Below are positions 2,011-19,385 of a stretch of 64,000 bases of DNA, one piece after another. Location: the IMG/VR virus record IMGVR_UViG_3300028833_000066, one strand, 5' to 3'. How positions within the stretch are numbered: the stretch's first letter is position 1; every line of letters begins with the position of its first letter. This stretch comes from a virus (Duplodnaviria > Caudoviricetes). Position numbers and translations under genes: made by a program. Below the pieces are notes generated by a model, which did no database searches, was not told where the DNA came from, and worked only from the letters and a program-made list of their open reading frames with translations.

Positions 2011-2037
2011 TTTTTATTTCTCCTTTCTAACAACTGA

Positions 2038-2247
2038 TTAGAAACCTAAGATAAATGAAAGTTTTAAGGGAAAAGAAGTATTACAATCTGGACACTTGAT
2101 ATAATAATCAATATGATTGCGTGTATCTTTTTTCCAATGAATTTGCGGATCATCTGCGGTAAATTCAAAGACACACCCACACGCACATTTGATTGTGCAA
2201 ATTTTGACAAGATTATTTTGTTTTTTACCATGCTGAAGGATTTTCAT
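2038..2247 (-). CDS. Zn-ribbon protein
   Basis: CACGC...CPDC; AAAGGAGA RBS. Confidence 0.75.
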   Translation of the reverse strand: MKILQHGKKQNNLVKICTIKCACGCVFEFTADDPQIHWKKDTRNHIDYYIKCPDCNTSFPLKLSFILGF

Positions 2248-2270
2248 TTTATTTCTCCTTTCTGATTAGG

Positions 2271-2489
2271 TTAATCGCCAACGATTGCTTCTGTCAAATC
2301 CATCCAATCATCATAACGTTCAAGAATCTTAACGTCTGTGGGTTCAAATACGCCTCCGCAACAACCACAAATTACGTTCGTGATAGTTTCACCATCGCCA
2401 CCAATGATAGCAATGCCACCGAAGATGTTGGTTTCACCTTCATTGATGAAGTCAGGATTGATGACTTCAAATTTTACTTGCTGATACAT
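2271..2489 (-). CDS. Small acidic Cys-containing protein
   Basis: ICGCCGGVFE; RBS and promoter (about 2563). Confidence 0.75.
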   Translation of the reverse strand: MYQQVKFEVINPDFINEGETNIFGGIAIIGGDGETITNVICGCCGGVFEPTDVKILERYDDWMDLTEAIVGD

Positions 2490-2622
2490 ATGTACATTCC
2501 TTTCTGGTTTAGAGTTTTCCTTCTCTTGATTACAATTAGATTATACCATAAATTTTAAGAATGTCAAGTGTTTTTTTGAAAAATGTGCCGGCCAAAGAGT
2601 TAGATAAATCTAACTCTTTTTA

Positions 2623-2904
2623 TTATAGCAATGCGGCAATAGCATTATCTACCGCTTCTTTATATCTTTCACCCAGACGAGCCGCTACAGCCTTGATAAG
2701 TTTGAGCGAAGTTGCGGGGTCGCTGAGAAAAGTTTCAATGGCATAGTCATCGCTATAATATACATGAAGATCTTCATGAAGATTACGCAAGAATTTACTG
2801 TCCCACGGGTTATAAATATCATTCTGTTCAAGCAAGTTCTCAACAATAGTGTCAATGTCGTCAGGCGTGATGGTCAGGGTGACAGTCTTGGTGATATTTT
2901 CCAT
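2623..2904 (-). CDS. Hypothetical early protein
   Basis: Promoter at about 2978, GAAAGGA RBS. Confidence 0.75.
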   Translation of the reverse strand: MENITKTVTLTITPDDIDTIVENLLEQNDIYNPWDSKFLRNLHEDLHVYYSDDYAIETFLSDPATSLKLIKAVAARLGERYKEAVDNAIAALL

Positions 2905-3077
2905 TGTTTTGTCCTTTCTGGTGTTAAGGATTTTCCTTTCCTTTTTACAAGTAAATTATACCACAGATTAGAAAAAAGTCAAGAGTTTTTTGAGTTAGCG
3001 GCAACTAAATTTTATGCCGGCCAAGTTAGTCATAACTAACTTGCGGCAAAAAGAAAAGAGGGCCGAAGCCCTCTGCC

Positions 3078-3413
3078 TCACGCGAGGCGGTAGGTGTTGG
3101 GCTTGCCCTCAATCTTGACGATGCGATCAGCCCAGTTGTGGGTCAGACCGTACTGGATCTTACCCTTGGTGAAACCCTCAGGCAGATTAGCCTCAACCTG
3201 CTCGAAGATCTCCGCCACGGTCAGCGGGGCAGTCGTGAGGGCGAAGACACCGCGGACGATGTCCCACGCGGTCTCATAGCCCGCGTCCTTCTCGGCCTTG
3301 GCGACTGCACCCTTATTCAGTTCGGCTTCGAGTTCGGTCTTGATTTCGTCAATATTGGTCACGGTCTCACCATTGAGGAAGGAAACGAGAGACTTGATGG
3401 TGGCAATACGCAT
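3078..3413 (-). CDS. Winged-helix-like protein, family A (copy 1 of 4)
   Basis: LTVAEIFE...FTKGKIQYGLTHNW...KIEGKPNTYR, shared with 7520, 10609 and 12895. Confidence 0.75.
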   Translation of the reverse strand: MRIATIKSLVSFLNGETVTNIDEIKTELEAELNKGAVAKAEKDAGYETAWDIVRGVFALTTAPLTVAEIFEQVEANLPEGFTKGKIQYGLTHNWADRIVKIEGKPNTYRLA

Positions 3414-3631
3414 AGTAGATACCCTTTCTGGTTTTTGAGACTGTCCTTGTCTTTTCATTTATATTCTACCACATTTCGTGGAGAATGTCAAGCATTTTTT
3501 AGGAAGTTGCGGAAGGTTTAACAGTCCCAATTACGCATTACCGCCCAACTAATGCCACCGCTTACATCCTTATTATAGCACAGGATTTGCTGTTTGTCAA
3601 GGGCTTTTTGAAGATTTTTTGTTTCAAGGTT

Positions 3632-3692
3632 TGCTACTTGTGGGCTCGAACTACTCTTACGCCATTTCCAATTACCAACCGAAGGAGTAGCA
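3632..3692 (-). ncRNA. Degenerate tRNA-like element in a non-coding transcript
   Basis: Acceptor-like TGCTACT/AGTAGCA stem and GTAG-TTCGAGC-CCAC T-arm, downstream of a promoter at about 3804. Confidence 0.4.
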
Positions 3693-3883
3693 GAGAGAGG
3701 AGAACCAAGTTGAACGGTATTGTAGGTTTGACTGGGCGTCACCATCACCAGATGGAGCACTCTCTCCCTTGGAACAATTATATTATATCATAATTTGCCA
3801 GAAAGTCAATTACAAAAGTGTTAAGATTTTATTACAATTATATTAACAGGCCGGCTCAGTTAGATACAACTAACATAAGAGCA

Positions 3884-3991
3884 AAGAGAAGGGGAGGAAT
3901 CGAACCTCCCTTGGTTTACCACAACCTACGGCGAATCGAACGCCCTACGACACCTTTCGGGTATCTGCTGTTACCAGTGAGCCACTTCTCT
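3884..3991 (-). ncRNA. tRNA-like RNA (GAA anticodon-like loop) with an extra T-loop and D-loop-like hairpin pair
   Basis: AGAGAAG/CTTCTCT acceptor, U8, GCT-CACTGGTAAC-AGC D-arm, GATAC-CCGAAAG-GTGTC arm, extra GGCG-TTCGATT-CGCC and GGTT-GTGGTA-AACC hairpins, GGGAGG-TTCGATT-CCTCCC T-arm. No encoded CCA. Confidence 0.65.
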
Positions 3992-4238
3992 TTTAATTGT
4001 GAAGAATTTTGGCTGTCCCTCGGGTGCCTTGTATCATTCTTCACAGTTCCGTATAGGGACTTGCAAGTGAGGTTGTCTGTGAGGATGCCTTACCCCGAAT
4101 GACTTATCAGGGGCCTCGTTCCGTTTTCCTCTCCCCTTGGAACAATTACATTATACCGCAATTTTGAGAATTGTCAAGTGGTTTTGAAAAAAAAGATTGC
4201 TAAGTTTTTAACAACCCGTGACCGGCAAAAAAGTTAGA

Positions 4239-4454
4239 TTACTCTAACTCTTCTTCTTCCTCTTTATAATATTTTTGATTGTCCTCAAAGCACTCTTTTG
4301 CGAAAAAGCAAATACCATGATGGTTGAGATAACAATGGGCACAATGATGATTATTTTGGATACATTTAGCAAGGTATTCATTTAATACTTTTATTGTTAA
4401 TTCCTCTTTATATATGGCTTCGATTTGTCGCTGTAACTGTTTTTCATTCATCAT
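4239..4454 (-). CDS. Cys/His-rich small protein
   Basis: CIQNNHHCAHCYLNHHGIC; overlaps the upstream gene. The track's longer start is a shadow extension. Confidence 0.65.
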   Translation of the reverse strand: MMNEKQLQRQIEAIYKEELTIKVLNEYLAKCIQNNHHCAHCYLNHHGICFFAKECFEDNQKYYKEEEEELE

Positions 4455-4728
4455 CACTATTATCCTCCATCGTATCTTCATATCCGTATACATCGCCTGC
4501 CCACCGAATTTCATCTTCTGCAAAATCCGTAGGGGCATCGGGGTCAACATCATCTGCGGCGAGCCAATCTTCCCAACTCTCCCAGAATGCACCCCAGTCA
4601 TCGCAATCTTCCATCGGGTCATCAATGTGACAAATACCCATCTGGTCGCAGTAGGGGCAATCGCCATAGGCATTCACGGGGCAGTAGGTATAGTCGCCAT
4701 TGTAGGTTCCCTTTTTCACATCACGCAT
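4444..4728 (-). CDS. Highly acidic Cys-rich protein (DNA-mimic candidate)
   Basis: CPVNAYGDCPYC motif followed by a D/E- and W-rich tail; GGAGG RBS. Confidence 0.75.
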   Translation of the reverse strand: MRDVKKGTYNGDYTYCPVNAYGDCPYCDQMGICHIDDPMEDCDDWGAFWESWEDWLAADDVDPDAPTDFAEDEIRWAGDVYGYEDTMEDNSDDE

Positions 4729-4903
4729 TTTTCTTTTCCTCCATTTTCATTTTATGATTTCTCCAAATTTTAGCATAGAAGACTACTTTTTCAGGATATT
4801 GTATTTTTGAAAAACCTTCACAAACCTGATAGAAAGTATCAACATAGATAGCATGGCAATGCTTACAGAGAAACTTGATGATCGTATTTATAATGGTGGT
4901 CAT
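4721..4903 (-). CDS. Hypothetical protein
   Basis: AAGGAGG RBS; translationally coupled to its neighbours. Confidence 0.6.
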   Translation of the reverse strand: MTTIINTIIKFLCKHCHAIYVDTFYQVCEGFSKIQYPEKVVFYAKIWRNHKMKMEEKKNA

Positions 4904-5094
4904 TGTTCTTCCTCCTTTACGCTCTCATTATAGCATTGTTTATACCATTTGTCAAGAGTTTTTCTTGCGGTTTTACGAAGTTTTTTCTTTAAGCGACGAC
5001 GTGCGGGAGTGCTTTGATCTATCCATTGACGACACCCTGTATTCAAATCCCAAGCTGCAAGTTCATCATGATATTTATGCTCGTTCTTACGCAT
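4900..5094 (-). CDS. Small basic protein
   Basis: RRRLKKKLRK; AAGGAGG RBS; carries an internal promoter at about 4930-4955. Confidence 0.65.
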   Translation of the reverse strand: MRKNEHKYHDELAAWDLNTGCRQWIDQSTPARRRLKKKLRKTARKTLDKWYKQCYNESVKEEEQ

Positions 5095-5168
5095 TTATTA
5101 TCCCTCCTTACATGCCTATTATAGCATACATAGGAAAGTTAGTCAAGCCTAATTTTTTCGCCGGCACC

Positions 5169-5444
5169 TTAACGGCTATAATTAAGGATGTCACGACCTT
5201 CCTTAAAGTCATAGATAGAAATCATAGTGCAGTCTTTGTCATATAGATAGATAGCGGCGGCTTGAAGTAAAGCAATAATATCGTCACCGCATTCACTCTT
5301 ACCGTTCTGGCCGTATACCGTAATCATTTGATACCGATGCTTCTTATCACGAAGCTGCTGACGCAAAGAATCATTTTCAAGACGTAACTGGTCAAGTTCC
5401 TCTTCCAATTCGCTAATACGCAGGCTCATTTCAAATTCATCCAT
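5169..5444 (-). CDS. Hypothetical protein with N-terminal coiled coil
   Basis: Promoter at about 5504, AAGGAGG RBS. Confidence 0.75.
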   Translation of the reverse strand: MDEFEMSLRISELEEELDQLRLENDSLRQQLRDKKHRYQMITVYGQNGKSECGDDIIALLQAAAIYLYDKDCTMISIYDFKEGRDILNYSR

Positions 5445-5542
5445 CGTGATTCCTCCTTAGTTATTTCTTCTTACAGTTTGATTATATCATAAAGTAGACA
5501 GTTAGTCAAGACTAATTTTCTTGCCGGCGGCAAATGGGAACA

Positions 5543-5746
5543 TTAGTTCCCATTCGCACGACTGACAGAAAGGTCTACCAGTTCATAAGAACGCTCAATA
5601 TCAAACCGACAGCCGCATTTATCACAACGACATGACCACCACTGTGCGGCACCATCCAGTCCGCTAAAATCATCACCGTAATCTTCAATGGTATAATCTT
5701 CCGAACCACACACGGGGCAAGCCTCTTTGTCAAAATTTTTACGCAT
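5543..5746 (-). CDS. Zn-ribbon protein
   Basis: CPVCG...CRCDKCGC. Likely start MRKNF overlaps the end of the upstream gene. Confidence 0.75.
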   Translation of the reverse strand: MRKNFDKEACPVCGSEDYTIEDYGDDFSGLDGAAQWWSCRCDKCGCRFDIERSYELVDLSVSRANGN

Positions 5747-6131
5747 TTTCCTGTGCCTCCTTTTCCTTTTCCTTGGCTTCACGCTTAGCCTTGTCGCGGG
5801 CGATCTTCTCTTCCTTTGCCTTGACCTTTTCGGCTTTCTCAGCCTGCTTGGTGTTGTAAGCATTGATTTCGTTCTGCATCAGTTCGCGGGCAGTCATGTC
5901 TTCGCGTTCCTCTGCTACGATGACGCCTACGCGGCAATAGCGTTCGACGCCATTTTTATCGGTCAGAATGCAACCCCACTGTCTATCATTGATTCTGCGA
6001 TACTCTGCATTATCTGTCCAAAAGGCATTGGGTTTAACACCATTAACAGAAGCAGAGTCCAGGTCAAAAATTTCAGTGAAGATACGGTCACGGAGGTCAG
6101 CATCAACAACAGTCTTCGCAATCTTCGCCAT
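5739..6131 (-). CDS. Family B protein with K/E/A-rich tail (paralogue of 12245)
   Basis: KT...LR...F start and EKAEK.K..EEK tail are shared with 12245. Confidence 0.75.
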   Translation of the reverse strand: MAKIAKTVVDADLRDRIFTEIFDLDSASVNGVKPNAFWTDNAEYRRINDRQWGCILTDKNGVERYCRVGVIVAEEREDMTARELMQNEINAYNTKQAEKAEKVKAKEEKIARDKAKREAKEKEKEAQENA

Positions 6132-6435
6132 AGAGATTCTCCTTTCGGTTTGTAGGGTGTCCTTCCCTTGATTACAGTTAGATTATATCACACATTTTGA
6201 TTATTGTCAAGAGATTTTTCAGAAGTTTCTGAAAATTTTTGTGTCCTCTCCGCATAAGCCAACCCTCTGGGGTGCTTATGCACGTGCGTTTCTTTACCGC
6301 CCCACCGAAGATTTCTTCGGGATGGTCGTCACATCCTCTTGACATTATTGATTATACCTGATGCCAAGACTTTTGTCAAGTAGTTTGTGCGATTTTCTTT
6401 TGTTAAGTTTTTCACAAGCGGGGCCGGCATAATAG

Positions 6436-6888
6436 TTAGTTATGACTAAACAACTGTGCTTCAAAGTCACGGGCAAGTTTGCGGTGTTCATAGGTGGCAA
6501 GCCAATTAATAGCCCATTCAGTGGCTATATATTCAGAAGGAATGTCAAAGTATACACTGAAAGCCGCGTCACGCTTAATCTCGTCATCCTCAATCCAATC
6601 AATTTCTTTGCGGGTTGCCCAATGTCCTAACTCGTGGAGGATAGCAAGAGTAATGTCAGAGAAATTATTTGCGAGAGGACAACGATTGACAAAATCTTCA
6701 CGAAATGCAACGTCCTCTTCTTCGGGTATGTAATTAATAACAGAGGGCACAAGCAAACGCGGGTTTGGCTTGTTATTAATATCCATTCCCCAATTATTGC
6801 TCATTCGCTTGCGTGCGATTGTTACGCGGTCGCCAATGGCCTTGCTTGCAAACTCGCGGATTAATTGAATCTGCATCATCTTTATCAC
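6436..6888 (-). CDS. Zincin-type metallopeptidase-like protein
   Basis: ILHELGH (HExxH) motif with a downstream Glu. Confidence 0.65.
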   Translation of the reverse strand: MIKMMQIQLIREFASKAIGDRVTIARKRMSNNWGMDINNKPNPRLLVPSVINYIPEEEDVAFREDFVNRCPLANNFSDITLAILHELGHWATRKEIDWIEDDEIKRDAAFSVYFDIPSEYIATEWAINWLATYEHRKLARDFEAQLFSHN

Positions 6889-6953
6889 TCCTTACACCCG
6901 TATTATATCACGCACAATAGAGTTAGTCAAGTATAACTTTGCCGGCGGCTGTC

Positions 6954-7205
6954 TCAACCCGCATAGAGTTGAGACAGAAAGTAGAGGTTGAGGACAATGC
7001 TGGAAAAATGAAGCAAGAAGTCATTTACATGGCGGTTCTGGTTAGTAAAGTCCTTAAAGATACCAATAAGAGCAATGCCAAGGCCGAACCAAGCAGAGCC
7101 GAAACCGCAAGTGATGATGAGAACAACATTGAGAACCATGCCCGCAGCACGCAAGTCCTGCCATTCAAGTTTATAAGGGGCATAAAGATTAAAGAACTTA
7201 CGCAT
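6954..7205 (-). CDS. Small membrane protein
   Basis: Hydrophobic segments; own promoter at about 7260. Confidence 0.7.
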   Translation of the reverse strand: MRKFFNLYAPYKLEWQDLRAAGMVLNVVLIITCGFGSAWFGLGIALIGIFKDFTNQNRHVNDFLLHFSSIVLNLYFLSQLYAG

Positions 7206-7519
7206 CTGGATTTCCCCTTCCCTTTTGTTCATCTATATTATATACTAATTTTTGATTTTTGTCAAGAGTCAATTTTGAAGTCCGCCACTCAATCGGGGCT
7301 ACCCGCTCATCCTCTTGCAGTGGGGTTCTCTTCCTCTTGACATCTTGATTATAGCATATAATGTGAGGTTAGTCAAGCCTAATTTTTATGCCGGCGACAG
7401 TTAGTTATGACTAAATAACTATTATGATAAAAAAAGAAAACCACCCCGAAGGGTGGCAAGGATGGGTTATTTCTCACCAATTACGCGACGCCAGAGATAG
7501 TGGCAACCTTGCGGGAGGC

Positions 7520-7852
7520 TTACGCCTTCCGATAGGCGTTGACCTTACCCTCAACCTTGACGACCTCGCCCGCCCACTGGTGGGTCAGAGCGTAGGACAG
7601 CTTGGACTTGGTGAAGTCCTCGGGAACCTCACCCTCGATGGCTTCCCACAGTTCAGCCACAGTCAGCGGAGCCTCAGTCAGCCCAAACTGAGCGAACACG
7701 ATGGGCTTAGCGGCTTCGTAGATTGCGGCCTTAGCAACCTTTACCGCATCGCCGCGATGAATTTCGCGGTTCAGTTCGTCCATAACCTCGGCGTTGTCGT
7801 AGTTGTAGTTGGTCAGAGCAGTGTAGATGGCATTCAGAGTAGCATTCTTCAT
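7520..7852 (-). CDS. Winged-helix-like protein, family A (copy 2)
   Basis: PLTVAELWE...FTKSKLSYALTHQW...VEGKVNAYR. Confidence 0.8.
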   Translation of the reverse strand: MKNATLNAIYTALTNYNYDNAEVMDELNREIHRGDAVKVAKAAIYEAAKPIVFAQFGLTEAPLTVAELWEAIEGEVPEDFTKSKLSYALTHQWAGEVVKVEGKVNAYRKA

Positions 7853-8197
7853 AGGGCAATTTCCTTTCTGGTTTTTAAGTGTTTTCCTTCACTTGATGTC
7901 TTTATTATATCATGGATTTGGGAGTTTGTCAAGGGGTTTCGCAAACTTTTTTCGCCCATTATGTTTGCTGGTGGCCAAATGTTTCTGTTTCCATGCGTTT
8001 TGTCTCTGTTGACTTTCGGCAACCACCTTGACTTGTCAGTGTGACTCCCTCACCTGACAATATTAATTATACTCTAATTTTGATTTTTGTCAAGCATTTT
8101 TTGAAAATTTCTTTGATAAATTTTTGACAATTGATGGTTATGTAGTCATAACTAACCGCCGCGCCGGCACGAAAAAAGGGTAATTAGATACCCTTCT

Positions 8198-8338
8198 TTA
8201 CAGAATCCTACACCAGAAAGCCGCGAGAAGAAGCCCCAAAAAGTAGTGAAGAATTATAGGTTTATCATCTTTGCGGCAAGCATTAGCGGTATATACTATC
8301 CAGACAAGAGTAAGCACGATGGCAATTGCAATTTTCAT
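8198..8338 (-). CDS. Small two-TM membrane protein (MKIAIAIVLTLVW...)
   Basis: ATGA overlap with the upstream gene; AGGAG RBS. Confidence 0.6.
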   Translation of the reverse strand: MKIAIAIVLTLVWIVYTANACRKDDKPIILHYFLGLLLAAFWCRIL

Positions 8339-8769
8339 TTTATTACTCCTTTCAGTACGCGGATGATTTCGTTAGGGGTGAAAGCGCCATCGCCCCATGC
8401 CTTGCGGTTCGGTTCCTCATCATCGAATAGGATGCCACCACCGCAAGCGGTGCGCTTGTCAGTACCATAGCGGACAATCTTGATTTCGTCCCATTCCACA
8501 GAAGGCAGATGCTTATGAAGCCATACCATTTTAGCAAGGGCAATCTCGCCATTGTAGAGATCAGAGCCACCACGGGAAGTCCACGAGATGATACCGATTT
8601 CATAACCATTCGCCTGTACCCTGTGAAGAAGCCGAGCGAGATATGCCATATTCACAAGGGGCTTCGCGATGTCGTAGGGACGAGTATCTTCATTGATAAG
8701 ATTTTCAAGCCACCCTTCCACGCCGTAGAGGTCAGCAATCGTTCCGTCCATGTCGAACCAAATAGTCAT
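8335..8769 (-). CDS. HAD-family phosphatase, 5'(3')-deoxyribonucleotidase-like (paralogue of 16774)
   Basis: FDMDGTIAD motif I and ILFDD motif IV. Confidence 0.85.
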   Translation of the reverse strand: MTIWFDMDGTIADLYGVEGWLENLINEDTRPYDIAKPLVNMAYLARLLHRVQANGYEIGIISWTSRGGSDLYNGEIALAKMVWLHKHLPSVEWDEIKIVRYGTDKRTACGGGILFDDEEPNRKAWGDGAFTPNEIIRVLKGVIK

Positions 8770-8834
8770 TTCTGACACCTTCCTTTCTTGGTGTAATTAT
8801 ATTATACTCTATTTTTAGATTTTGTCAAGGGGTT

Positions 8835-8972
8835 TTAAGAAAGAATTTTGATTACGCATCTTTCTTCTTTCCGAACGTGGGCAATTTGATAAAGCCAAAT
8901 GCGAATAATTTGACTCAATTTCAGTTCGCGGATTGTCTGCTGTCCTTTGCAATTACGGAGATAAACTTTCAT
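8835..8972 (-). CDS. Small hypothetical protein (MKVYLRNCKG...)
   Basis: Promoter at about 9020, GGAAGG RBS. Confidence 0.5.
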   Translation of the reverse strand: MKVYLRNCKGQQTIRELKLSQIIRIWLYQIAHVRKEERCVIKILS

Positions 8973-9059
8973 TCTTGGCACCTTCCTTTCATCCTTATTA
9001 TATCATATTGGTAGTAGTTAGTCAAGCCTAACTTTTCTGCCGGCGCCGAGGCGGCAGGC

Positions 9060-9776
9060 TCAAAGAGCCCACCGCTGTTCGATGTCATCGGGTTCAAGTT
9101 CTGCTTCGCGTTCCATTGCCTTGTGCATCCGCACGCACGCCGCGAAAATTTGTGCTTCAATCTGTACATCTTCAAGACCAGTGTGTGATTCAGTGAAGTT
9201 ATTGTCGCCAGTGAGGAATCGCCACAGAATTTCGGCGGTCTTGCGAACCTGCGGGACCTTATGCTTGGTCATATAACCATTTTCCTTGCAGAAAGCCACA
9301 TAATCAGCACGCTTGCAAATGGTATCCGTGGCCATCTTCATAGTGTCCCACACAGGCAAACCATAGGGGAAGAAGTACCGCCGCTTGCTCTTGGTCTGAT
9401 ACCGCATAGTGGTGTTCATTGTCCGCACATCAAACCGTGCATTGTGGGCAAGGATAGCCTTAACTTTGTAGTCTTCACAATCTTGCCGAAGCTGACGCCA
9501 AATGCCCCAAGTGTTGCGGACAATACGCTTGCCCTCGCGGATGTCCTGCTTGTACTGCGGGATTTTATCAGCAAAGAATGCTTCATTCATAGCCTGCGGC
9601 ATTTCGTAGAACACATCGCTATTCACGAACGAACGTTCGCAATATACCTTTCCTTCATTATCTACGATAGCCCAACCGCTATCATACACTTGACCGCTCG
9701 TGAGGTCAAGCTGACCCTTCTCATCCTTGGGAGTGTTGCAAGTCTCGCCATCAAACACAAGATACAGTTCCTTCAT
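9060..9776 (-). CDS. DEDDh 3'-5' exonuclease (paralogue of 11451)
   Basis: FDGET, AHNARFD and HTGLED motifs. Confidence 0.9.
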   Translation of the reverse strand: MKELYLVFDGETCNTPKDEKGQLDLTSGQVYDSGWAIVDNEGKVYCERSFVNSDVFYEMPQAMNEAFFADKIPQYKQDIREGKRIVRNTWGIWRQLRQDCEDYKVKAILAHNARFDVRTMNTTMRYQTKSKRRYFFPYGLPVWDTMKMATDTICKRADYVAFCKENGYMTKHKVPQVRKTAEILWRFLTGDNNFTESHTGLEDVQIEAQIFAACVRMHKAMEREAELEPDDIEQRWAL

Positions 9777-9887
9777 TTCGTCTTACCCCTTTCATTCGGT
9801 ACAGTCTTATTATACATTAGGGGAGGGGCTTTGTCAAGAGTTTTTTCAAACTTTTTTCAAATTTTCGGCCGGCGAAAAATGCGAAAA

Positions 9888-10412
9888 TTACATTTCCGCA
9901 TCCCACCCGTAGTCAATCACTACGGGCTTGCCCTTGTAATAGCCCACATTGAACTCGTGGAGGTCGCAAATGTTCTCCGTGAGCCAGTCATATTCTTCAT
10001 CGGTCACATAATCGCCCCAATACCGCCATTCGTCACCAACGCCATTGATACGCGGCATAATGGACACGATGCGGCCACCGATCGCCATCACGGTAGTTTT
10101 GGCGAGCAGATAGGCATAACCCGCATCAACCGCACGGGCATAGACTTCCTGCTCGGTAGAGTTATCACCCGCACGGCAACCACCGAAATCATCAAGCCAA
10201 TCTTCCGCGGGAGTAAGGTCAAACTTGATGACATAATCTGCACGCATAATGGCAATACGGGACACGCCGTGAGCATAGTTAAGCGGACGACTATGGGTAG
10301 AATTGTAATCTTTAATAGCTTCTTCAAAATCAGCAAGGGTAGAGCATGCAGAGAACAGGCGGACGAGCAGAGCGGCGAATTTAGCGGCACGAACTTCGTA
10401 AGTGTTCTTCAT
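9888..10412 (-). CDS. Minimal protein-kinase-like protein
   Basis: GVSRIA (Gly loop), VIKFD (Lys), EQEVY (helix C Glu), DLHEFNVG (catalytic loop), VIDYG (DFG-like). Confidence 0.75.
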   Translation of the reverse strand: MKNTYEVRAAKFAALLVRLFSACSTLADFEEAIKDYNSTHSRPLNYAHGVSRIAIMRADYVIKFDLTPAEDWLDDFGGCRAGDNSTEQEVYARAVDAGYAYLLAKTTVMAIGGRIVSIMPRINGVGDEWRYWGDYVTDEEYDWLTENICDLHEFNVGYYKGKPVVIDYGWDAEM

Positions 10413-10608
10413 CTTGATGTCCCCTTTCATTCGGTACATCTTGATTATACAATAACGGGGTACAAATGTCAAGGGGTTTTTGAAAAAAAGAGCAAGAAAT
10501 TTTCGTGCCGGCACGATTTTAAAATGCCGGCAGGTTAGTCATAACTAACTAACTATTATGAAAACAAAATAAAATGCCACCCGATAGGGGTGGCATTTCA
10601 GGTGAGCC

Positions 10609-10947
10609 TTACACCTTGAGGGTGTAGGTGTTCACCTTGCCAGTGGTCTTAATCACGCGGTCAGCCCACTGGTGACCGAGGGCATAGGTCAGCTTGCCCT
10701 TGGTGAAGTCAGAACCGACCTTGCCATCAAGGCTGTCAAAGATTTCGGCAACGGTGGCGCCTTCGGTCGCAGTAGCGAGAACCTCACGAACCGCGTTCCA
10801 GTTGTCCGCGTAAACCTGAGCCTTCGCGGCCTTTGCGGCATCACCGCGATGGAGTTCGGCGTTAACCTCAGCGAGAATGGCATCCTTGTTTTCGAAGTCA
10901 ACAGTGGACAGGACAGAAGCGATGGTGGACAGAGTGATGTTCTTCAT
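10609..10947 (-). CDS. Winged-helix-like protein, family A (copy 3)
   Basis: ATVAEIFD...FTKGKLTYALGHQW...GKVNTY. Confidence 0.8.
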   Translation of the reverse strand: MKNITLSTIASVLSTVDFENKDAILAEVNAELHRGDAAKAAKAQVYADNWNAVREVLATATEGATVAEIFDSLDGKVGSDFTKGKLTYALGHQWADRVIKTTGKVNTYTLKV

Positions 10948-11206
10948 ATAGAACCTTCCTTTCTCGTTTGTTTACGCGGTGTCGTTCCGCAATCTTTTTT
11001 TTGTGTTCCTCTTGGAACATCTTTATTGTATCACACCTTGCGGTGTTTGTCAAGAGGTTTTTCAAACTTTTTTTGGGGTGGGCATCCTGCCCTCGGCTTG
11101 CTTTCCCCTCCTGACATATTCTATTATACTCAGATTTTAAATTGTGTCAAGCATTTAAGAGCAAAAAGATTGACAACTTTTTAACAAGCCGCCGGCATAA
11201 TTGGCG

Positions 11207-11359
11207 TCAGTCATCATACTGACGCCCTTTGTGCTTTGGGGGCTTCCGCCGTTTATCGGGGATAATTTTAGTCACAGGGGAAATGGAACCCCAGTCACCG
11301 CGGATAGAGCGGACAATTTCAAATTGGGATTTAACCTGAGCCTTACGCTTCATTTTCAT
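11207..11359 (-). CDS. Small basic protein (MKMKRKAQ...KPPKHK)
   Basis: AAGGAGG RBS, promoter at about 11406. Confidence 0.65.
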   Translation of the reverse strand: MKMKRKAQVKSQFEIVRSIRGDWGSISPVTKIIPDKRRKPPKHKGRQYDD

Positions 11360-11450
11360 TGCCTCCTTCTTGGTACATTTTGATTATATCATAGTCAAAG
11401 CATTTTGTCAAGAGGAAATTTTCGGCTGGCCAAAAAGGATGCGTAATTTT

Positions 11451-12104
11451 TTACGCATCCCAGTTGAGACAAGTGGCATAAATGCGGGCTTCAATTTCAG
11501 TATCGCCAACGCCAGTATGCTCCTCCTCAAAATCAGTATTTTGAGTAAGGAATCTCCAAATTGCTTCCGCTGTTGCTCGCGGTCTCGGGATGGCGTGGTT
11601 GGTCATCAAACCATTTTCTTTACAAAAGGTTATATATTCATCAGTTTTACAAATGGTATTTCGTGCCAGTTTCATGGTATCAATTACAGGCATATTGTAC
11701 GGGATGAAATAACGTTTTTTGCTTTTAGTTTGATAACGCATAGTAGCATTGAGTACTCGAATATCGAAAGACGCATTGTGAGCGATGATAGCTTCAACAT
11801 GCCACTTGTCGCACAAGTCTCGGAAAATCTTATACATTCCCCAACTATCCGTGACTGTATATTTTTTGTCCCAAATGTCCCGCCAATACTGCGGAATCTT
11901 ATCCGCAAAATAAGCATCTTTCATCGTCTCGGGCATAGAGATGAAAACATCACGATTGATCACGGGCACAACTTCAAGGGTCTTGCCCTCGTCATTAATG
12001 ACGCGGAAGCAAGCGTCATAAACCTGCCCATCATCTGAAAATAGTTTACCATTAATTTTATAAGTGTTTGCGGTTTCAGTGTCCACGACCATTTTATTGC
12101 CCAT
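11451..12104 (-). CDS. DEDDh 3'-5' exonuclease
   Basis: VDTET, AHNASFD and HTGVGD motifs; shares MRYQTKSK.RYF with 9060. Confidence 0.9.
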   Translation of the reverse strand: MGNKMVVDTETANTYKINGKLFSDDGQVYDACFRVINDEGKTLEVVPVINRDVFISMPETMKDAYFADKIPQYWRDIWDKKYTVTDSWGMYKIFRDLCDKWHVEAIIAHNASFDIRVLNATMRYQTKSKKRYFIPYNMPVIDTMKLARNTICKTDEYITFCKENGLMTNHAIPRPRATAEAIWRFLTQNTDFEEEHTGVGDTEIEARIYATCLNWDA

Positions 12105-12244
12105 TTTAGAAAGCCTTTCTGGTTTGGGAGGTGTCCTTCCTCTTTTCAATGATGATTGTATCATATTTGTGCGAGTTTGTCAAGCCTAACTTTTTGGCCG
12201 GCGAGGTTAGTTATGACTAACTATTATATATAAAAAAATGGGGA

Positions 12245-12619
12245 TTACTCCCCATCCTTTTCGGCCTTCTTCGCGGCCTTTTCGGCACGCCGCTTGGCGT
12301 CAGCCGCGATCTTCGCGGCTTTCTTTTCCTCGGCGACCTTGTGCTTCTCGGCCTTTTCGGCACATTCGCGAGCGTAGCCATCCGCGGCGGCGTAGCCATC
12401 GTAGGCATTGTAGCCACCTTTACCGTTTCGAGTACCGCGAGGAGTAGAAACTTTTACCACAATCCACGCATCATCGCCCTCAGCGTCAACGCAAGGCAGG
12501 GCAATTTCATTGGAACTCACGCGGAGGACTTCTTCATCAGACAGAAGCCCGATGAACTTGTCAAGGAAGGAAGCACGGAGAGCGGATTCGATAGCAGTCT
12601 TAGTCATAGCCATAAGCAT
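12245..12619 (-). CDS. Family B protein with K/A-rich tail
   Basis: Similar to 5739; GAAAGGA RBS. Confidence 0.75.
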   Translation of the reverse strand: MLMAMTKTAIESALRASFLDKFIGLLSDEEVLRVSSNEIALPCVDAEGDDAWIVVKVSTPRGTRNGKGGYNAYDGYAAADGYARECAEKAEKHKVAEEKKAAKIAADAKRRAEKAAKKAEKDGE

Positions 12620-12781
12620 TTCCTTTCTGGTTTTTAAGAGTTTCCTTCTCTTATGTCTTGATTATACTACAGAGTGGAGGTTTTGTCAAGAGGAATTTTT
12701 TATCATCGTGAGGAGGTGTCCCTCATCCTCTTGACAATTATTATTATACTCAAAATTTGATTTTTGTCAAGTATTTTTTTC

Positions 12782-12818
12782 TATGAATATTTATAAATTT
12801 TTTGTATAATTATGCACT
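12782..12818. promoter_or_regulatory. Tandem ARG-box-like site
   Basis: TGAATATTTATAAA and TGTATAATTATGCA match TGNAT-W4-ATNCA with 1 and 0 mismatches. Confidence 0.5.
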
Positions 12819-12894
12819 GCCGGCACGAAAGTTAGTAATGACTAAATAACTATTGTATGCGTCAAAAGAAAAAAGACCCCGAAGGGTCTTTTAC

Positions 12895-13227
12895 TCACCG
12901 CAGGCGATACACATTACCGCCCTTGGTCTGCTCAACGCTCACAGCATCGTTCCAGTAGTGCAGGAGAGCATACTGTACCTTACCCTTGGTCATGCCATTG
13001 GGCAGAGTATCGCCACAGCTCTCCATCAGCTCCGACAGCGTAGCTCCATCAGTAGCCAGCTTCAGCTGTCCAAGCACCAGCTCGCGGGCCGATTCATACA
13101 GCTCCCGATTCGCAGCAGCCTTCTCGGCATTGCGATTCAGCTCCCGCATCAGCTCCGCACGGGCATCCGCCATCTCAGGCACGTTCTCAAGGAAGGAAAC
13201 AAGGGACTGCATAGTGGTCTTCTTCAT
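12895..13227 (-). CDS. Winged-helix-like protein, family A (copy 4)
   Basis: ATLSELME...MTKGKVQYALLHYW...NVYR. Confidence 0.8.
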   Translation of the reverse strand: MKKTTMQSLVSFLENVPEMADARAELMRELNRNAEKAAANRELYESARELVLGQLKLATDGATLSELMESCGDTLPNGMTKGKVQYALLHYWNDAVSVEQTKGGNVYRLR

Positions 13228-13620
13228 AGTGATATCCTTTCTGGTTTTTAGGACTTTTCCTTGTCCTCTTTACATCTTGATTATACCACAGTTTTGAGGT
13301 CTTGTCAAGTGTTTTTTGAAACTTTTTTTTCGTTTGCGGCAAGATTTCCGTGGCCTTTGGAATCTTGGGAGAGCAGTCCATCTTGCCGCATTCTTTCGGG
13401 TGGTGCCCCTCTGTCCTCCCGACACTTTATATTATACTCGGATTTAGGTTTCTGTCAAGTGTTTTTCGCAAAAAGTTTTGTAAAGTTTTTAACAATGTTG
13501 TTAGTTAGTTATAGCTAACTCGGCCGCCGGCAAAAGAGTTAGTTTCAGCTAACTCTCGTAATTATGCCGGCAGAAAAGTTAGTCGCAGCTAACTTTGCCG
13601 ATAAAAAAACTGACAGCGGC

Positions 13621-14070
13621 TTACGCCACCGCCAGCCCCGCCAGCGTCTTTTCGTTGGTCAGTTCAGCTCCGTCAAACTTGATTTGGAGCTCCCGCCCGT
13701 TCAGGCTCAGGTCTCCGGCCACCCAGAAGGGAACGCTATCCTTGACCCAGTGCTGACCAGCCAGCTCGGTGATGATCCGCTCAAAGTTCTCGCCCTTGTT
13801 GTGGTGGGTGTCAGCTTCCAGATCCTCGGCCTTGCCGATGATCTTGGCCAGCCCCTTGGCAATCAGGGCCAGCTTGTCAGCTTTCGCGACGCGGATGCGA
13901 ATCTTGGCCATGCCGCCCCGCTTGCTGGAAGCGTGGTCCAGCTTCAGCACGGCGTCAGGCAGCTCGGGCAGCTCGGCGGCGAACAGTTCGCCGTGGTGGA
14001 CAAAGCCGAGGACATAAGCATCAGCGGCAGAATGGGCTTCGTAGGTGTTCAGCATCTCTTCGCGGGTCAT
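13621..14070 (-). CDS. PD-(D/E)xK nuclease-like protein (paralogue of 18257)
   Basis: NKGENFE...PFWVAGD...QIKF pattern. Confidence 0.6.
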   Translation of the reverse strand: MTREEMLNTYEAHSAADAYVLGFVHHGELFAAELPELPDAVLKLDHASSKRGGMAKIRIRVAKADKLALIAKGLAKIIGKAEDLEADTHHNKGENFERIITELAGQHWVKDSVPFWVAGDLSLNGRELQIKFDGAELTNEKTLAGLAVA

Positions 14071-14154
14071 CGTGGTGGCCTCCCTTGCTTTCATCTTACA
14101 AGTAGATTATACAGTGCCGGACCGATTTTGTCAAGAGGTTTTTTGAAAAAAGTT

Positions 14155-14400
14155 ATTACATTTCTGTTAAGATTTTATAGACTTTTCGTAATACTTTTGT
14201 AATAGTTTCGTGCTTTAACGTGTTAAAGCGGAGATACCTCGGCAGGTGAGGTATCCCACGGTGGAGGTACTTCGGCAGGTGAGGTATTGCCGGCAAAGTA
14301 GTTAGTGACAACTAATCTGGTTAGTCATAACTAACTCTTATAATACTTATTTAGTCATAACTAACTCCGCGAAAATAGTTAGTTAGTTATAACTAACTTA
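14155..14400. promoter_or_regulatory. Operator cluster at the divergence point of the early block
   Basis: TGTAAT-type 11-bp repeats, CTTTAA-N4-TTAAAG (14211), two TACCTC-GGCAGGT-GAGGTA-type units, GCCGGC, and four AGTTAG-N6-CTAACT. Confidence 0.75.
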
Positions 14401-14595
14401 AAAAATCGCACCCTCGCCGTGGGTCCGACCGGTTCTCCGCTCCTCTGGTTATAGTATAGCACACTATGGAAAAATGTCAAGAGGTTTTCAAAAATTTTTT
14501 GAAAAAATTTTGCCGGCAAGATTTTGAAAAAAGTGCTTGACAAGTCCGGACAAGTATGTTATAATCAAGATGTAAAGAGAAGCAAGGAGGAAGAA

Positions 14596-14760
14596 ATGAT
14601 GAAGAGTTTCGAGGTTGAAATTAGCTGGGTAGAGGCTCATGGTTTCCGTTATGTGGTGAAGGATGGCAAGCTGTATTGGCAGACCGCGATTCAGACCGCG
14701 GAGATGGACGAGGATGGTCATATTGTATGGCATGAAAAAGAATATTTTAATCTTCTGTAA
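14596..14760 (+). CDS. Small hypothetical protein
   Basis: Promoter at 14537, AAGGAGG RBS. Confidence 0.7.
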   Translation: MMKSFEVEISWVEAHGFRYVVKDGKLYWQTAIQTAEMDEDGHIVWHEKEYFNLL

Positions 14761-14832
14761 AACCTCTTGACAAAACATTGACCGTCTGTTATAATCAAGA
14801 TGTACCAAAGAGATAGAAAGGAAGTAGGAACA

Positions 14833-15048
14833 ATGTACAAAACTACTTGGATTATCAGTGATGAAAGTGACGAGGGTATCTATCAGACAGAATTGACCTT
14901 GTATCATTTCGGAAAAACTCCCAAATTTCCCAGTTGGTACATGGAAGAAAATCACTCTTACGTGATTGAAATGGTTTGGAATTTCAAATTGATTGTTCGT
15001 CCTTCAATCTTCTTTAAGTGCCTGACCCATCAATACATTATCAAGTAA
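14833..15048 (+). CDS. Hypothetical protein
   Basis: Promoter at 14767, RBS. Confidence 0.65.
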   Translation: MYKTTWIISDESDEGIYQTELTLYHFGKTPKFPSWYMEENHSYVIEMVWNFKLIVRPSIFFKCLTHQYIIK

Positions 15049-15124
15049 AAAAGTACTTGACAAATCCGGCAACCTGTGCTATACTTAGATCGTACCAAGG
15101 GAAGAACAAAAGGAGGATCACAAA

Positions 15125-15433
15125 ATGATCACCATGCGTCATCTGCTGACCCTGAAAGAAAACGACGGCATGACCCTGAAAAACGGCGAGATGATCACTT
15201 ATAAAAGCGGCTGGCAAGTAGCCACCGAAGGCGTGGAATGTGTAAGTCCGAAGGATGCCATGCGTGCGATTAAGCAGTATAACGGCACTTGCGGCGTGTG
15301 GTACGCTGGCGGTATCTACTACATTGACAAAAGCCACCGCGTGAGCACGAAACGTGAGGCCATGGAGATCGGCCGCAAGTGCAAGCAGATTTCCGTCCTG
15401 CGCTGGCATGATATGGGACTTGTCTACTGCTGA
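15125..15433 (+). CDS. Hypothetical protein
   Basis: Promoter at 15057, AAGGAGG RBS. Confidence 0.8.
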   Translation: MITMRHLLTLKENDGMTLKNGEMITYKSGWQVATEGVECVSPKDAMRAIKQYNGTCGVWYAGGIYYIDKSHRVSTKREAMEIGRKCKQISVLRWHDMGLVYC

Positions 15434-15551
15434 GCAGTAGGCCGGAAAAATTTCTTTGAAAAAGTTTTGAAAAAGTGCTTGACAAATAATCGGGAATATG
15501 TTAATATATAGTCACCGGGAGGGACCCCGGAAGATAAAGGAGGAAACGAAA

Positions 15552-15719: not shown

Positions 15720-15914
15720 GCCTCCACCCCGGCACCGGATCCACCGGCGCCGTTTTTTATGCCGGCACAAAAGTTAGTTATGACTAACTGATTCGGATCG
15801 GCGGTTAGTTATAACTAACCGGAGTATGTTGCCCTGGCGCTCGGCTGAAAAAAGTTTTTAAAAAACTTTCAAAAACCTCTTGACAAACCCGCGAAAGTGT
15901 GGTAAGATTAAGAT

Positions 15915-18739: not shown

Positions 18740-19385
18740 ATAGTTACTTAGTTATCACTAACTCGCTCGACTTTAATGCTTTAATGCAATGAAGTGGAGG
18801 AAAACTATTCGCGTCAATTTACACGCTTTAATGCGTTAAAGAGTTGTTAAATTTTTAACAATCGCCCCACCCTCATGTTTTCTTCAATACTTTAATGCAT
18901 TAAAGTGGGTCTGCGGCAGAATACTTATTTAGTTATAACTAACTCGCTCGATGCTATATTGTTAAATTTTTAACAAGCGGCCCACCTTTATGGTTTAGCA
19001 CTTTAATGTGTTAAAGTGGAGGCACCTGTAACACTTTTGTAACAAATTAAAATCCTGCTTAGTCGGCCGGTATCGTTATAAATCCATAATATTTGAAAGG
19101 TGGAGGGTGGTTCTTGTTCGCGTTTTATTTTTCAAAATAAGCATACCCCCGCCCGCGGAAAAGGATTTATAATTGTTACACCCCACAGTGAAATTTTGTA
19201 ACATTTTTGTAACAAATTCGGACCTACCCTAGCTTCCAGGTGCTAGCTTCCAGCATTTTCCAGACCCCGGGGGCTAGCTTTCGGGATTTTTTGAAAAGTT
19301 AGTCTAGACTAACTAGGGGCGTGCCCAAATTCCACCAACTTTTTTAAAAAATAACTTAAACCACCAACTTTTAAAAATAACCTTC
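18740..19385. promoter_or_regulatory. Gene-free operator and repeat cluster at the right border of the early block
   Basis: Four CTTTAA-N4-TTAAAG-type sites, two TTGTTAA-N4-TTAACAA, two TGTAAC-N5-TGTAAC, three AGTTAG-N6-CTAACT, TAGCTTCCAG repeats and a CCACCAACTTTT repeat. Confidence 0.85.

What the first reader, a model, noticed from the sequence alone, without database searches (positions are those of the whole stretch)
4172..13495. Rex/Crp-like box at a fixed 19-20 bp upstream of the -35 of gene-less promoters
Boxes at 4197, 6400, 8113, 11170 and 13478 start 25, 26, 25, 25 and 25 bp from the start of the -35 hexamers at 4172, 6374, 8088, 11145 and 13453. All five promoters drive short or structured non-coding segments that run into a second promoter and gene. 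The box centre is at about -63, close to a class I activator position, and TGTTA-N6-TAACA is also Crp/Fnr-like. Two other gene-less promoters carry a WalR-like (3809) or ARG-like (12782) site just upstream instead. This suggests a repeated sensor-promoter-ncRNA module.
Basis: partly seen in the sequence, partly recalled or inferred. Interest (0 to 1): 0.8.

Follow-up and report, generated by a model that had tools for sequence, protein, structure and literature searches.

The report
Rex-type box upstream of phage promoters
Five early promoters of a large stop-codon-recoded rumen/gut phage carry, at a fixed 19-20 bp upstream of their -35 element, an 18-bp palindrome identical to the DNA site of the bacterial redox sensor Rex, so the phage probably couples part of its early transcription to (or soaks up) a host regulator, although no binding has been tested.

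Summary
TTGTNAAAAANTTNNCAA occurs 7 times in the window against 0.15 expected. Five copies lie 19-20 bp upstream of consensus sigma-70 -35 hexamers on the minus strand. Two perfect copies lie in the gene-free hub at 18.8-19.0 kb.

The window is a TAG=Gln-recoded phage, and 0.9-18.7 kb is a standard-code early block with about 50 consensus promoters. In nine related genomes, 32 of the 34 promoters with a good box have it at gap 19 or 20. The box is oriented and is better conserved than its flanks.

It equals the clostridial Rex operator TTGTTAA-N4-TTAACAA. The same 18-mer sits next to ldh and adhE genes in Clostridia genomes. Five complete relatives encode no Rex homologue, and box presence does not follow phage phylogeny, which favours a host factor.

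The "gene-less" promoters are distal members of tandem promoter pairs. No terminator separates P1 from P2. Four of the five pairs feed paralogous winged-helix genes. In relatives, box promoters often drive genes directly, so the box marks a promoter class, not an ncRNA module.

The Crp and class I activator readings are weakly supported. The sign of regulation is unknown. This scan has already noted Rex-type boxes in other phages; the new points here are the fixed geometry and the tandem-promoter context.

The parts
13478..13495 (-). Box 5, TTGTTAAAAACTTTACAA
   Evidence: Gap of 19 bp to the -35. The G007 orthologue is 94% identical in the box against 58-80% in the flanks.
13431..13458 (-). 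P1 of module 5 (TTGACA, 16-bp spacer, TATAAT)
13309..13424 (-). Leader between P1 and P2. It has no credible ORF and a long hairpin.
   Evidence: z -1.8; no terminator
12898..13308 (-). P2 (-35 at 13303-13308), conserved 5'UTR and winged-helix paralogue A1-4 (12898-13227)
11170..11187 (-). Box 4, TTGTTAAAAAGTTGTCAA
   Evidence: identical in relative G001
11123..11150 (-). P1 of module 4 (16-bp spacer)
10612..11116 (-). 63-nt leader, P2 (-35 at 11048-11053), long 5'UTR and winged-helix paralogue A1-3 (10612-10947)
8113..8130 (-). Box 3, TTGTCAAAAATTTATCAA
8066..8093 (-). P1 of module 3 (16-bp spacer)
7523..8059 (-). 127-nt leader, P2 (-35 at 7927-7932) and winged-helix paralogue A1-2 (7523-7852)
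6400..6417 (-). Box 2, TTGTGAAAAACTTAACAA
   Evidence: 100% identical in G007
6351..6379 (-). P1 of module 2 (17-bp spacer, gap 20)
5742..6344 (-). 134-nt structured leader (z -3.2), P2 (-35 at 6205-6210) and a 130-aa gene with no Pfam or PHROG match (5742-6131)
4197..4214 (-). Box 1, TTGTTAAAAACTTAGCAA
4150..4177 (-). P1 of module 1 (16-bp spacer)
3081..4143 (-). Long non-coding stretch with a tRNA-like RNA, two further promoters (3809, 3600), then P2 (3491) and winged-helix paralogue A1-1 (3081-3413)
18844..18861 (-). Perfect box TTGTTAAAAATTTAACAA in the gene-free hub, with no promoter at the fixed distance
18959..18976 (-). Second perfect box in the hub, 115 bp from the first
   Evidence: the same pair is present in G001

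Best explanation
The box is an operator for a conserved host dimeric regulator, most likely the NADH/NAD+-sensing repressor Rex of a Clostridia host. The phage places it directly upstream of the A/T-rich UP-like element of a subclass of early sigma-A promoters, with the box at about -72 to -54.

In this phage those promoters are the distal members (P1) of tandem pairs. Their structured leaders read through an unregulated proximal promoter (P2) into small genes, four of which are winged-helix paralogues. Occupancy of the box would change how the RNA polymerase alpha C-terminal domains use the adjacent UP-like tract. P1 output would then follow the host redox state while P2 gives a basal level. 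By analogy with Rex, the default expectation is damping when NADH is low.

The same sites, together with the two perfect copies in the hub, would also titrate Rex as the genome replicates.

Shown here: the motif, its fixed oriented geometry, selection on it, its identity with sequences next to ldh and adhE genes, and the absence of a phage rex gene in five complete relatives. Inferred: that Rex binds, the sign of the effect, and the role of alpha-CTD.
For: 1. Motif excess. There are 7 copies against 0.15 expected.

2. Geometry.
- Among 488 consensus promoters in nine genomes scanned at every gap from 10 to 39, matches are bimodal. 34 have 2 or fewer arm mismatches, and 32 of these lie at gap 19 or 20.
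- In a scan with the near-perfect box pattern, gaps to the next promoter are 19:5, 20:22, 21:7 and 22:6. One promoter faces the opposite direction at that distance.

3. Selection. Orthologous modules of the window and G007 are 83-100% identical in the box and 58-80% in the flanks and leader. In the five-promoter alignment only the box, the -35, the -10 and the start region are conserved.

4. Identity with the Rex operator.
- The literature gives TTGTTAANNNNTTAACAA as the Clostridiaceae Rex consensus (PMC9600882). A DAP-seq Rex motif validated by EMSA matches it in C. thermocellum (PMC8457756).
- The exact 18-mer in bacterial genomes is flanked by ldh four times and adhE three times, plus thiolase and lactate permease, among 96 neighbouring genes. 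The taxa named for these loci are Christensenellaceae, Anaerocolumna, Clostridia and Bacillota.
- Box variants swap TTGTTAA with TTGTGAA and TTAACAA with TTCACAA. I recall this as the degeneracy known for Rex.

5. A host factor rather than a phage factor.
- No PF06971 (Rex DNA-binding domain) match was found in five complete relatives.
- The window shares 50-62 of 96 proteins with the box-free G002-G004 but only 15-26 with the box-bearing G006, G010 and G009.
- No phage protein has the matching phyletic pattern.
- Clearly phage-specific palindromes differ even between close relatives.
- Related phages mix Rex-type boxes with canonical Gram-positive LexA boxes.

6. Host. The phage NrdD is 70-90% identical to copies in contigs assigned to Clostridia MAGs and isolates.
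Against: - No binding data exist and the host is unknown.
- Rex is known as a repressor whose sites usually overlap the promoter or 5'UTR. In the host ldh and adhE cases the box lies 22-137 bp from the start codon. A site centred near -63, upstream of a consensus promoter, is not a classical repressor position.
- The central A-tract is oriented towards the promoter in 41 of 42 cases. A symmetric dimer does not explain this, and it hints at a DNA-shape or alpha-CTD component.
- The promoter-proximal half-site is imperfect in four of the five window boxes (6400 has a perfect TTAACAA).
- The composite box-N19-22-TTGAC is almost absent from bacterial genomes: 7 hits, at least 2 of them phage contigs. 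Hosts therefore do not use this geometry.
- A fast-evolving small phage protein could escape the tblastn phyletic test.
Confidence: 0.5

Rival explanations
1. The box is the operator of a phage-encoded or virion-delivered dimeric DNA-binding protein that happens to share, or mimics, Rex specificity. That protein switches the P1 class on or off during the early programme.
For: - Related phages have their own abundant palindromes placed near -35 elements. G002 and G004 have TTAGATGTT-N1/2-AACATCTAA at 23-31 promoters. This window has AGTTAG-N6-CTAACT. Phage-specific operator systems therefore exist in this group.
- In the G006/G010 clade almost every promoter of a 12-kb block carries the box, like a temporal class.
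- Most early proteins have no recognisable family.
Against: - No protein co-occurs with the box across the clades.
- The only winged-helix family found (A1) was found in the box-free G002-G004 and not in G006, G010 or G009.
- The motif is identical in distantly related phages, whereas the genuine house palindromes change between close relatives.
- The window's early block shows no recognisable HTH apart from A1.
Confidence: 0.2
2. The boxes are mainly decoys. They soak up host Rex and so derepress host NAD+-regenerating fermentation genes during infection, and their position next to promoters is incidental or only keeps them accessible.
For: - Two perfect copies lie in a promoter-free hub.
- Relatives carry arrays of up to nine perfect boxes in 570 bp without promoters, interleaved with LexA boxes.
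- The copy number would rise with replication.
Against: A pure decoy needs neither a fixed 19-20 bp gap nor a fixed orientation nor restriction to one promoter class. The promoter-linked copies in the window are the weaker ones, not the strongest binders.
Confidence: 0.12
3. The box is a protein-independent promoter element: a far-upstream extension of the UP element, or a phased A-tract bend, that boosts RNA polymerase binding.
For: - The box abuts a UP-like tract with consensus ...AtTTT..AAAAA... before the -35.
- The A5 run is oriented.
- A-runs recur at roughly 11-bp intervals between the box and the -35 (read from the sequences).
Against: The invariant positions are the palindromic TTGT...CAA arms, including G3 and C16, in an otherwise A/T context. 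Non-box promoters share only the proximal A-run. Perfect copies also exist away from any promoter.
Confidence: 0.08
4. A host Crp/Fnr-family activator binds TGTTA-N6-TAACA and activates P1 by a class I contact with alpha-CTD.
For: The centre lies at -62.5 to -64.5, close to -61.5. In this clade box promoters have sub-optimal 16-bp spacers in 8 of 10 cases against 15 of 99 (p=4e-5).
Against: - The core is TGTTA, not TGTGA, and the invariant outer TT/AA fit the 7-4-7 Rex geometry better.
- The gap ranges over 19-22 bp without compensation by spacer length.
- The -35 and -10 are already consensus.
- Genes next to the same 18-mer in bacteria are Rex-regulon genes.
Confidence: 0.05

Closest known systems
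Clostridial Rex operator (TTGTTAA-N4-TTAACAA) upstream of ldh, adhE and thl (Ravcheev et al. 2012 as cited in PMC9600882 and PMC8457756)
   Same: It has the same 18-bp 7-4-7 inverted repeat. Two window copies and many copies in relatives match perfectly. The same 18-mer lies next to ldh and adhE in Clostridia genomes.
   Different: Here it sits on phage DNA, centred near -63, upstream of a UP-like tract and a consensus promoter. It is oriented and at a fixed gap. It does not overlap the promoter or 5'UTR as in the host genes. Binding is untested.
Spo0A boxes on the virulent Bacillus phages phi29 and Nf (PMC2731898)
   Same: A lytic phage carries binding sites for a host global regulator at or near its early promoters, so that phage transcription follows the host's physiological state.
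   Different: The regulator and the signal differ (sporulation phosphorelay against NADH/NAD+). The Spo0A boxes overlap promoters and replication origins and have been shown to repress. Here the position is upstream, the geometry is stereotyped and the effect is unknown.
Class I activator sites (CRP at -61.5) and the upstream binding site of phage phi29 p4 at the A3 promoter, which acts through alpha-CTD (own knowledge for CRP; p4 recruitment of RNAP to A3 is named in PMC2731898)
   Same: A dimer-type palindrome lies upstream of the -35, next to where alpha-CTD binds, at a constrained distance.
   Different: The core promoters here are consensus and need no activator. The distance varies by up to 3-4 bp without helical compensation. 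The motif is not a CRP or p4 site.
Tandem early promoters of the phage SPO1 host-takeover region and the T5 pre-early region (own knowledge)
   Same: A dense block of very strong host-sigma promoters with small genes lies at one end of a large lytic phage genome.
   Different: As far as I know, no host-repressor operator at a fixed upstream position has been described for those phages.

Membership tests
Rex operator (clostridial type) | 18-bp inverted repeat TTGTTAA-N4-TTAACAA (7-4-7) | tested here: met
   The copies at 18844 and 18959 are perfect. The five promoter-linked copies have 0-1 mismatch in the 12 arm positions scored.
Rex operator (clostridial type) | The same sequence lies next to Rex-regulon genes in bacteria | tested here: met
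   Among 96 genes next to the exact 18-mer are ldh x4, adhE x3, thiolase x2 and lactate permease.
Rex operator (clostridial type) | Bound by Rex and released by NADH | not testable with these tools
   This needs EMSA or DAP-seq with host Rex.
Rex operator (clostridial type) | The host encodes Rex with this specificity | tested here: inconclusive
   The host is unknown. The phage NrdD is 70-90% identical to copies in Clostridia contigs. Five complete relatives hold no rex homologue.
Rex operator (clostridial type) | The site overlaps the promoter or 5'UTR, so that binding blocks RNAP | tested here: not met
   The box spans about -72 to -54, upstream of the UP-like tract.
Crp/Fnr class I activator site | TGTGA-N6-TCACA-type core | tested here: not met
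   The core is TGTTA/TAACA, with T, G or C at the position where CRP needs G. The loose pattern is at chance level in the window.
Crp/Fnr class I activator site | Centre on a fixed helical face near -61.5 or -71.5 | tested here: inconclusive
   The centre is at -62.5 to -64.5 here. Gaps of 19-22 bp occur in relatives, and the gap is not compensated by spacer length.
Crp/Fnr class I activator site | A weak core promoter that depends on the activator | tested here: not met
   All five have TTGACA and TATAAT. Only the 16-bp spacer is sub-optimal.
UP element | A/T-rich tract from -40 to -60 without G/C-specific positions | tested here: not met
   The 19-20-bp spacer fits a UP element, but the box itself lies upstream of it and has invariant G3 and C16 in palindromic arms.
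Phage-specific (house) operator | The motif follows phage lineage and a phage-encoded binder | tested here: not met
   The box is present in distant clades and absent from the closer relatives G002-G004. No protein co-occurs with it.

The most novel reading that the evidence does not exclude
The phage uses host Rex not as a classical repressor but as a redox-dependent architectural partner of RNA polymerase. Rex would sit at a fixed, oriented position next to the UP element and gate the distal promoter of tandem pairs. The structured leader RNAs (including a tRNA-like RNA) and extra doses of winged-helix takeover proteins would then be made only in hosts of a given NADH/NAD+ state. This would be the first case of Rex acting positively or by alpha-CTD interplay, and of redox-gated early transcription in a lytic phage.
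Probability: 0.15. Interest if true: 0.8.

Novelty: new variant of a known kind. Interest (0 to 1): 0.6.

Why it matters
Host-regulator sites on lytic phages are known for a few cases, such as Spo0A on phi29 and LexA boxes. Two full-text searches turned up no paper describing a redox-sensor operator built at a stereotyped position into a whole class of early promoters.

If Rex binds, these large uncultured rumen and gut phages read the fermentative state of their anaerobic hosts at the moment of infection, and may also derepress host NAD+-regenerating pathways by titration. That gives a testable link between gut redox metabolism and phage development. It also gives a possible new mode of action for Rex and a sequence handle for host prediction, since the operator type points to Clostridia.

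Tried and rejected
- Rfam at gathering threshold and ARAGORN found nothing in the window. The leaders belong to no curated RNA family.
- Megablast of 2000-14500 against GenBank phages found nothing.
- Box as an RNA hairpin or cruciform: positions 4/15 and 5/14 do not covary in the five window copies (read). Rejected.
- Box plus T-run as a terminator: the stem is weak and A/U-rich, many copies are followed by AGAAAA rather than a T-run, and real terminators lie upstream. Rejected as the general function.
- Leaders as protein-coding: no ORF with a credible start was found. The 40-aa ORF in the 13458 leader runs through P2 and was treated as spurious.
- The A1 winged-helix paralogues as the box binder. 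They are a winged-helix fold (pLDDT 90). However, they were found in box-free relatives and not in the box-bearing G006, G010 and G009, and they show no sequence match to Rex. Rejected on phyletic grounds.
- A phage-encoded Rex: none in five complete relatives.
- A phyletic-profile search for any phage protein matching box presence. The only early-region candidates tested were one GIY-YIG-like family and one family with no Pfam match.
- A Bacilli-type Rex box (TTGTGAA-N4-TTCACAA) at the same geometry: only 3 viral hits. No parallel system is evident for that motif.
- LexA boxes in this window: one match inside a gene, at chance level.
- RNAalifold on the P2 5'UTRs gave no consensus fold because the short stems were misaligned.


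Full report
**What the window is**

Under the standard code, the region from 20 to 56 kb has almost no long ORFs. Reading TAG as a residue opens it, including a 4974-codon frame at 33729-48653.

With TAG=Q the genes from 19.4 kb onward match these phage functions:
- a phage sigma factor
- large terminase
- portal
- anaerobic ribonucleotide reductase

The window is therefore part of a large TAG-recoded phage. The region from 0.9 to 18.7 kb differs from the rest: G+C is 41-49% instead of about 30%. It uses the standard code and has small genes in two divergent arms. It holds about 50 near-perfect TTGACA-N16-18-TATAAT promoters. This is an early, host-RNA-polymerase-dependent block.

**The observation**

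On the minus strand the 18-mers at 4197, 6400, 8113, 11170 and 13478 all read TTGTNAAAAANTTNNCAA. Each starts 37 or 38 nt before a TTGACA hexamer, which is a gap of 19 or 20 bp.

The full motif is: 7 copies against 0.15 expected. The other two copies, at 18844 and 18959, are perfect palindromes in the gene-free hub.

Aligning the five promoters shows conservation only in four places: the box (13 of 18 columns invariant), CTTGACA, GTATAAT and a TGT at the presumed start.

If +1 is the conserved G seven nt after the -10, the box spans about -71/-73 to -54/-56, with its centre at -62.5 to -64.5.

**Is the geometry more than shared ancestry?**

All five modules are syntenic in the relative G007. 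There the box is 83-100% identical, while the 40 nt upstream, the spacer and the leader are 58-80% identical.

I scanned 488 consensus promoters in nine genomes for the best arm match at every gap from 10 to 39:
- The distribution is bimodal, with a background mode at 5 mismatches.
- 34 promoters have 2 or fewer mismatches.
- 32 of those 34 lie at gap 19 or 20.

A scan of IMG/VR with the near-perfect box pattern, which sets no condition on a promoter, gave gaps to the next consensus promoter of 19 (5), 20 (22), 21 (7) and 22 (6). Only one promoter faces the other way at that distance. The element is therefore fixed to within about 2 bp and oriented, with the A5 run pointing to the promoter.

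The gap does not compensate for the 16- or 17-bp spacer. The box is therefore anchored to the -35/UP region, not to the start site.

**What the "gene-less" promoters are**

No ORF with a credible start lies between each box promoter and the next promoter. No terminator was predicted between P1 and P2 for four of the five; the 4177 leader has one weak terminator-like hit, the tRNA-like T-arm at 3892-3910. The leaders fold only moderately better than shuffles, with z from +0.5 to -3.2.

The box promoters are thus the distal promoters (P1) of tandem pairs. Their transcripts should run through the proximal promoter (P2) into the gene.

Four of the five pairs feed paralogues of one small family, 39-46% identical to each other. 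AlphaFold models this family as a helical hairpin plus a winged helix, with mean pLDDT 90. Each of these genes is closed by a strong terminator. The fifth pair feeds a 130-aa protein with no family match.

Tandem arrangement is enriched among box promoters: 13/32 against 45/456, p=1.5e-5. It is not obligatory:
- In G007 the orthologue of the 6400 box sits directly on the gene's leader.
- In the G006/G010 clade 14 of 18 box promoters drive genes directly.

In the window's clade, box promoters have 16-bp spacers in 8 of 10 cases against 15 of 99 for other promoters, p=4e-5.

**What the box is**

Its arms and spacing are those of the clostridial Rex operator, TTGTTAANNNNTTAACAA. PMC9600882 quotes this as the "typical Rex binding motif in Clostridiaceae". 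In PMC8457756 a DAP-seq motif of C. thermocellum Rex, validated by EMSA, matches it.

I tested whether the phage's exact 18-mer behaves as a Rex site in bacteria. Among 96 genes adjacent to TTGTTAAAAATTTAACAA in GTDB genomes of all phyla, the commonest families were:
- lactate dehydrogenase (4)
- bifunctional AdhE (3)

Thiolase (2) and lactate permease (1) were also present. The ldh and adhE loci with titles shown are from Christensenellaceae, Anaerocolumna and Clostridia. Another adhE case in a Bacillota MAG came from the composite scan. These are core Rex-regulon genes.

Box variants in relatives exchange TTGTTAA with TTGTGAA and TTAACAA with TTCACAA. I recall this as the degeneracy known for Rex.

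**Host factor or phage factor?**

- Five complete relatives hold no Rex DNA-binding domain.
- Box presence cuts across phage relationships. The window shares 50-62 of 96 proteins with G002-G004, which have no box. It shares only 15-26 with G006, G010 and G009, which have 3-8 boxes.
- No phage protein shows the matching presence/absence pattern. The two early-region families shared by the box-bearing clades are a GIY-YIG-like protein and a family with no Pfam match.
- The winged-helix family was found in box-free genomes and not in G006, G010 or G009.
- Palindromes that are clearly phage-specific change between close relatives. G002 has TTAGATGTT-N2-AACATCTAA and G004 has the N1 form, at 23-31 promoters each. 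This window has AGTTAG-N6-CTAACT.
- A motif that stays constant across distant phages, while house operators drift, fits a conserved host protein.
- In other relatives the same box occurs in promoter-free arrays. One has nine boxes in 570 bp, interleaved with canonical Gram-positive LexA boxes.
- The phage NrdD is 70-90% identical to copies on contigs assigned to Clostridia. This fits a host that uses this Rex motif.

**What does not fit a textbook Rex site**

- Position. The box lies upstream of a UP-like tract (consensus ...AtTTT..AAAAA..C before the -35) rather than over the promoter.
- Orientation. The central A-run is oriented towards the promoter.
- Half-site quality. The promoter-proximal half-site is imperfect in four of the five window copies.
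- Host use. The composite box-N19-22-TTGAC is almost absent from 596 Gb of bacterial genomes. There are 7 hits, and at least two are phage contigs.

The arrangement is therefore a phage invention. The most economical mechanism is that the bound dimer sits against the distal alpha-CTD site and changes UP-dependent recruitment at P1, while P2 stays constitutive. The sign of the effect cannot be read from sequence. PMC8457756 notes that activation by Rex has been suggested but never shown.

A titration role for the sites is compatible with this, and for the hub copies it is likely. It does not explain the fixed geometry.

**Comparison and novelty**

The closest documented case is the set of Spo0A boxes on phi29 and Nf early promoters (PMC2731898). 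Two full-text searches found no report of Rex sites on phage promoters.

Earlier notes of this scan describe Rex-type boxes in other phages of this group and reach the same "reads or soaks up Rex" reading. The phenomenon is therefore recurrent in this data set. This report adds:
- the unbiased geometry statistics
- the orientation bias
- the tandem-promoter context
- the phyletic argument
- the ldh/adhE check

I class it as a new variant of a known kind: a host-regulator operator on lytic-phage early promoters.

**Limits**

- The window's own genome is not held.
- The host is unknown.
- TSS positions are inferred.
- Nothing about binding or regulation has been measured.

Noticed in passing
window 13225-13273, 12611-12654, 7850-7897, 6129-6175, 3411-3456, 2902-2948, 2487-2533, 1731-1775, 1314-1360, 12102-12148 (minus strand): The proximal-promoter 5'UTRs share a stereotyped leader. 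A short 4-5-bp stem of variable sequence (GGAC/GTCC, GAG/CTC, GGG/CCC, CACTT/AAGTG) flanks a conserved loop AAGGA(A/C)A. This is followed by AAACCAGAAAGG and the start codon. It looks like a covarying hairpin next to the ribosome-binding site. RNAalifold gave no consensus because the stems were misaligned.
   Followed up: partly
window 900-18700, e.g. 4224-4229, 6426-6431, 11193-11198, 13527-13532: The hexamer GCCGGC marks almost every cassette junction, just upstream of the box or of the UP-like tract. In the G006/G010 clade the same place holds CCCGGG. Its function is unknown.
   Followed up: no
window 5146, 5509, 6930, 7376, 9025 promoters (minus strand): A second promoter class has the phage's AGTTAG-N6-CTAACT-type palindrome overlapping a TTGACT -35 (for example TTAGGCTTGACTAAC). 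Relatives G002 and G004 instead carry TTAGATGTT-N2/N1-AACATCTAA upstream of 31 and 23 promoters. These are lineage-specific operators.
   Followed up: partly
window 3884-4000 (minus strand): The leader of the 4177 box promoter contains a tRNA-like sequence with two T-arm-like hairpins (GGTTCGATTCC type). ARAGORN and Rfam do not call it. The 3809 leader has a similar T-loop-like piece near 3640-3660.
   Followed up: no
window 19405-20789 (+): The first gene after the hub is read with TAG=Q and matches a phage sigma factor (phrog_5767, E 5e-17). It is driven by a consensus sigma-70 promoter at 19405. This is the likely early-to-late switch.
   Followed up: partly
window 13624-14070 (-) and 18257-18706 (+); 9063-9776 and 11454-12104 (-); 8338-8778 (-) and 16774-17199 (+): The early block holds several pairs of look-alike genes (judged by eye from the translations, not aligned). 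One pair of 150-aa proteins without a Pfam match lies next to the two gene-free repeat regions. A second pair looks exonuclease-like (phrog_20187 for 9063-9776). A third pair of about 145 aa, MTIWFDMDGT..., looks HAD-like to me (not scanned against any library) and sits on opposite arms.
   Followed up: no
G007 29188-29205 (L214): The orthologue of the window's box 4 reads TTGACAAAAACTTGTCAA. It is a perfect palindrome with both half-sites changed symmetrically at positions 4-5 and 14-15. It may be a variant operator with altered affinity.
   Followed up: no
L111 384-954; L038 192-7037: Other IMG/VR phages carry arrays of up to nine perfect TTGTTAA-N4-TTAACAA boxes in 570 bp. They are interleaved with canonical Gram-positive LexA boxes (CGAAC-N4-GTTCG). 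They also carry boxes at the same 19-20-bp gap before promoters.
   Followed up: partly
window promoters throughout 900-18700: Nearly all promoters share TATAAT-N5-TGT. Transcripts would therefore start GU(C/U/A)..., commonly GUCAGGAGG, GUUCCAAGGG or GUAAUCAAGGG. The conserved initial transcribed sequences are shared with distant relatives.
   Followed up: no
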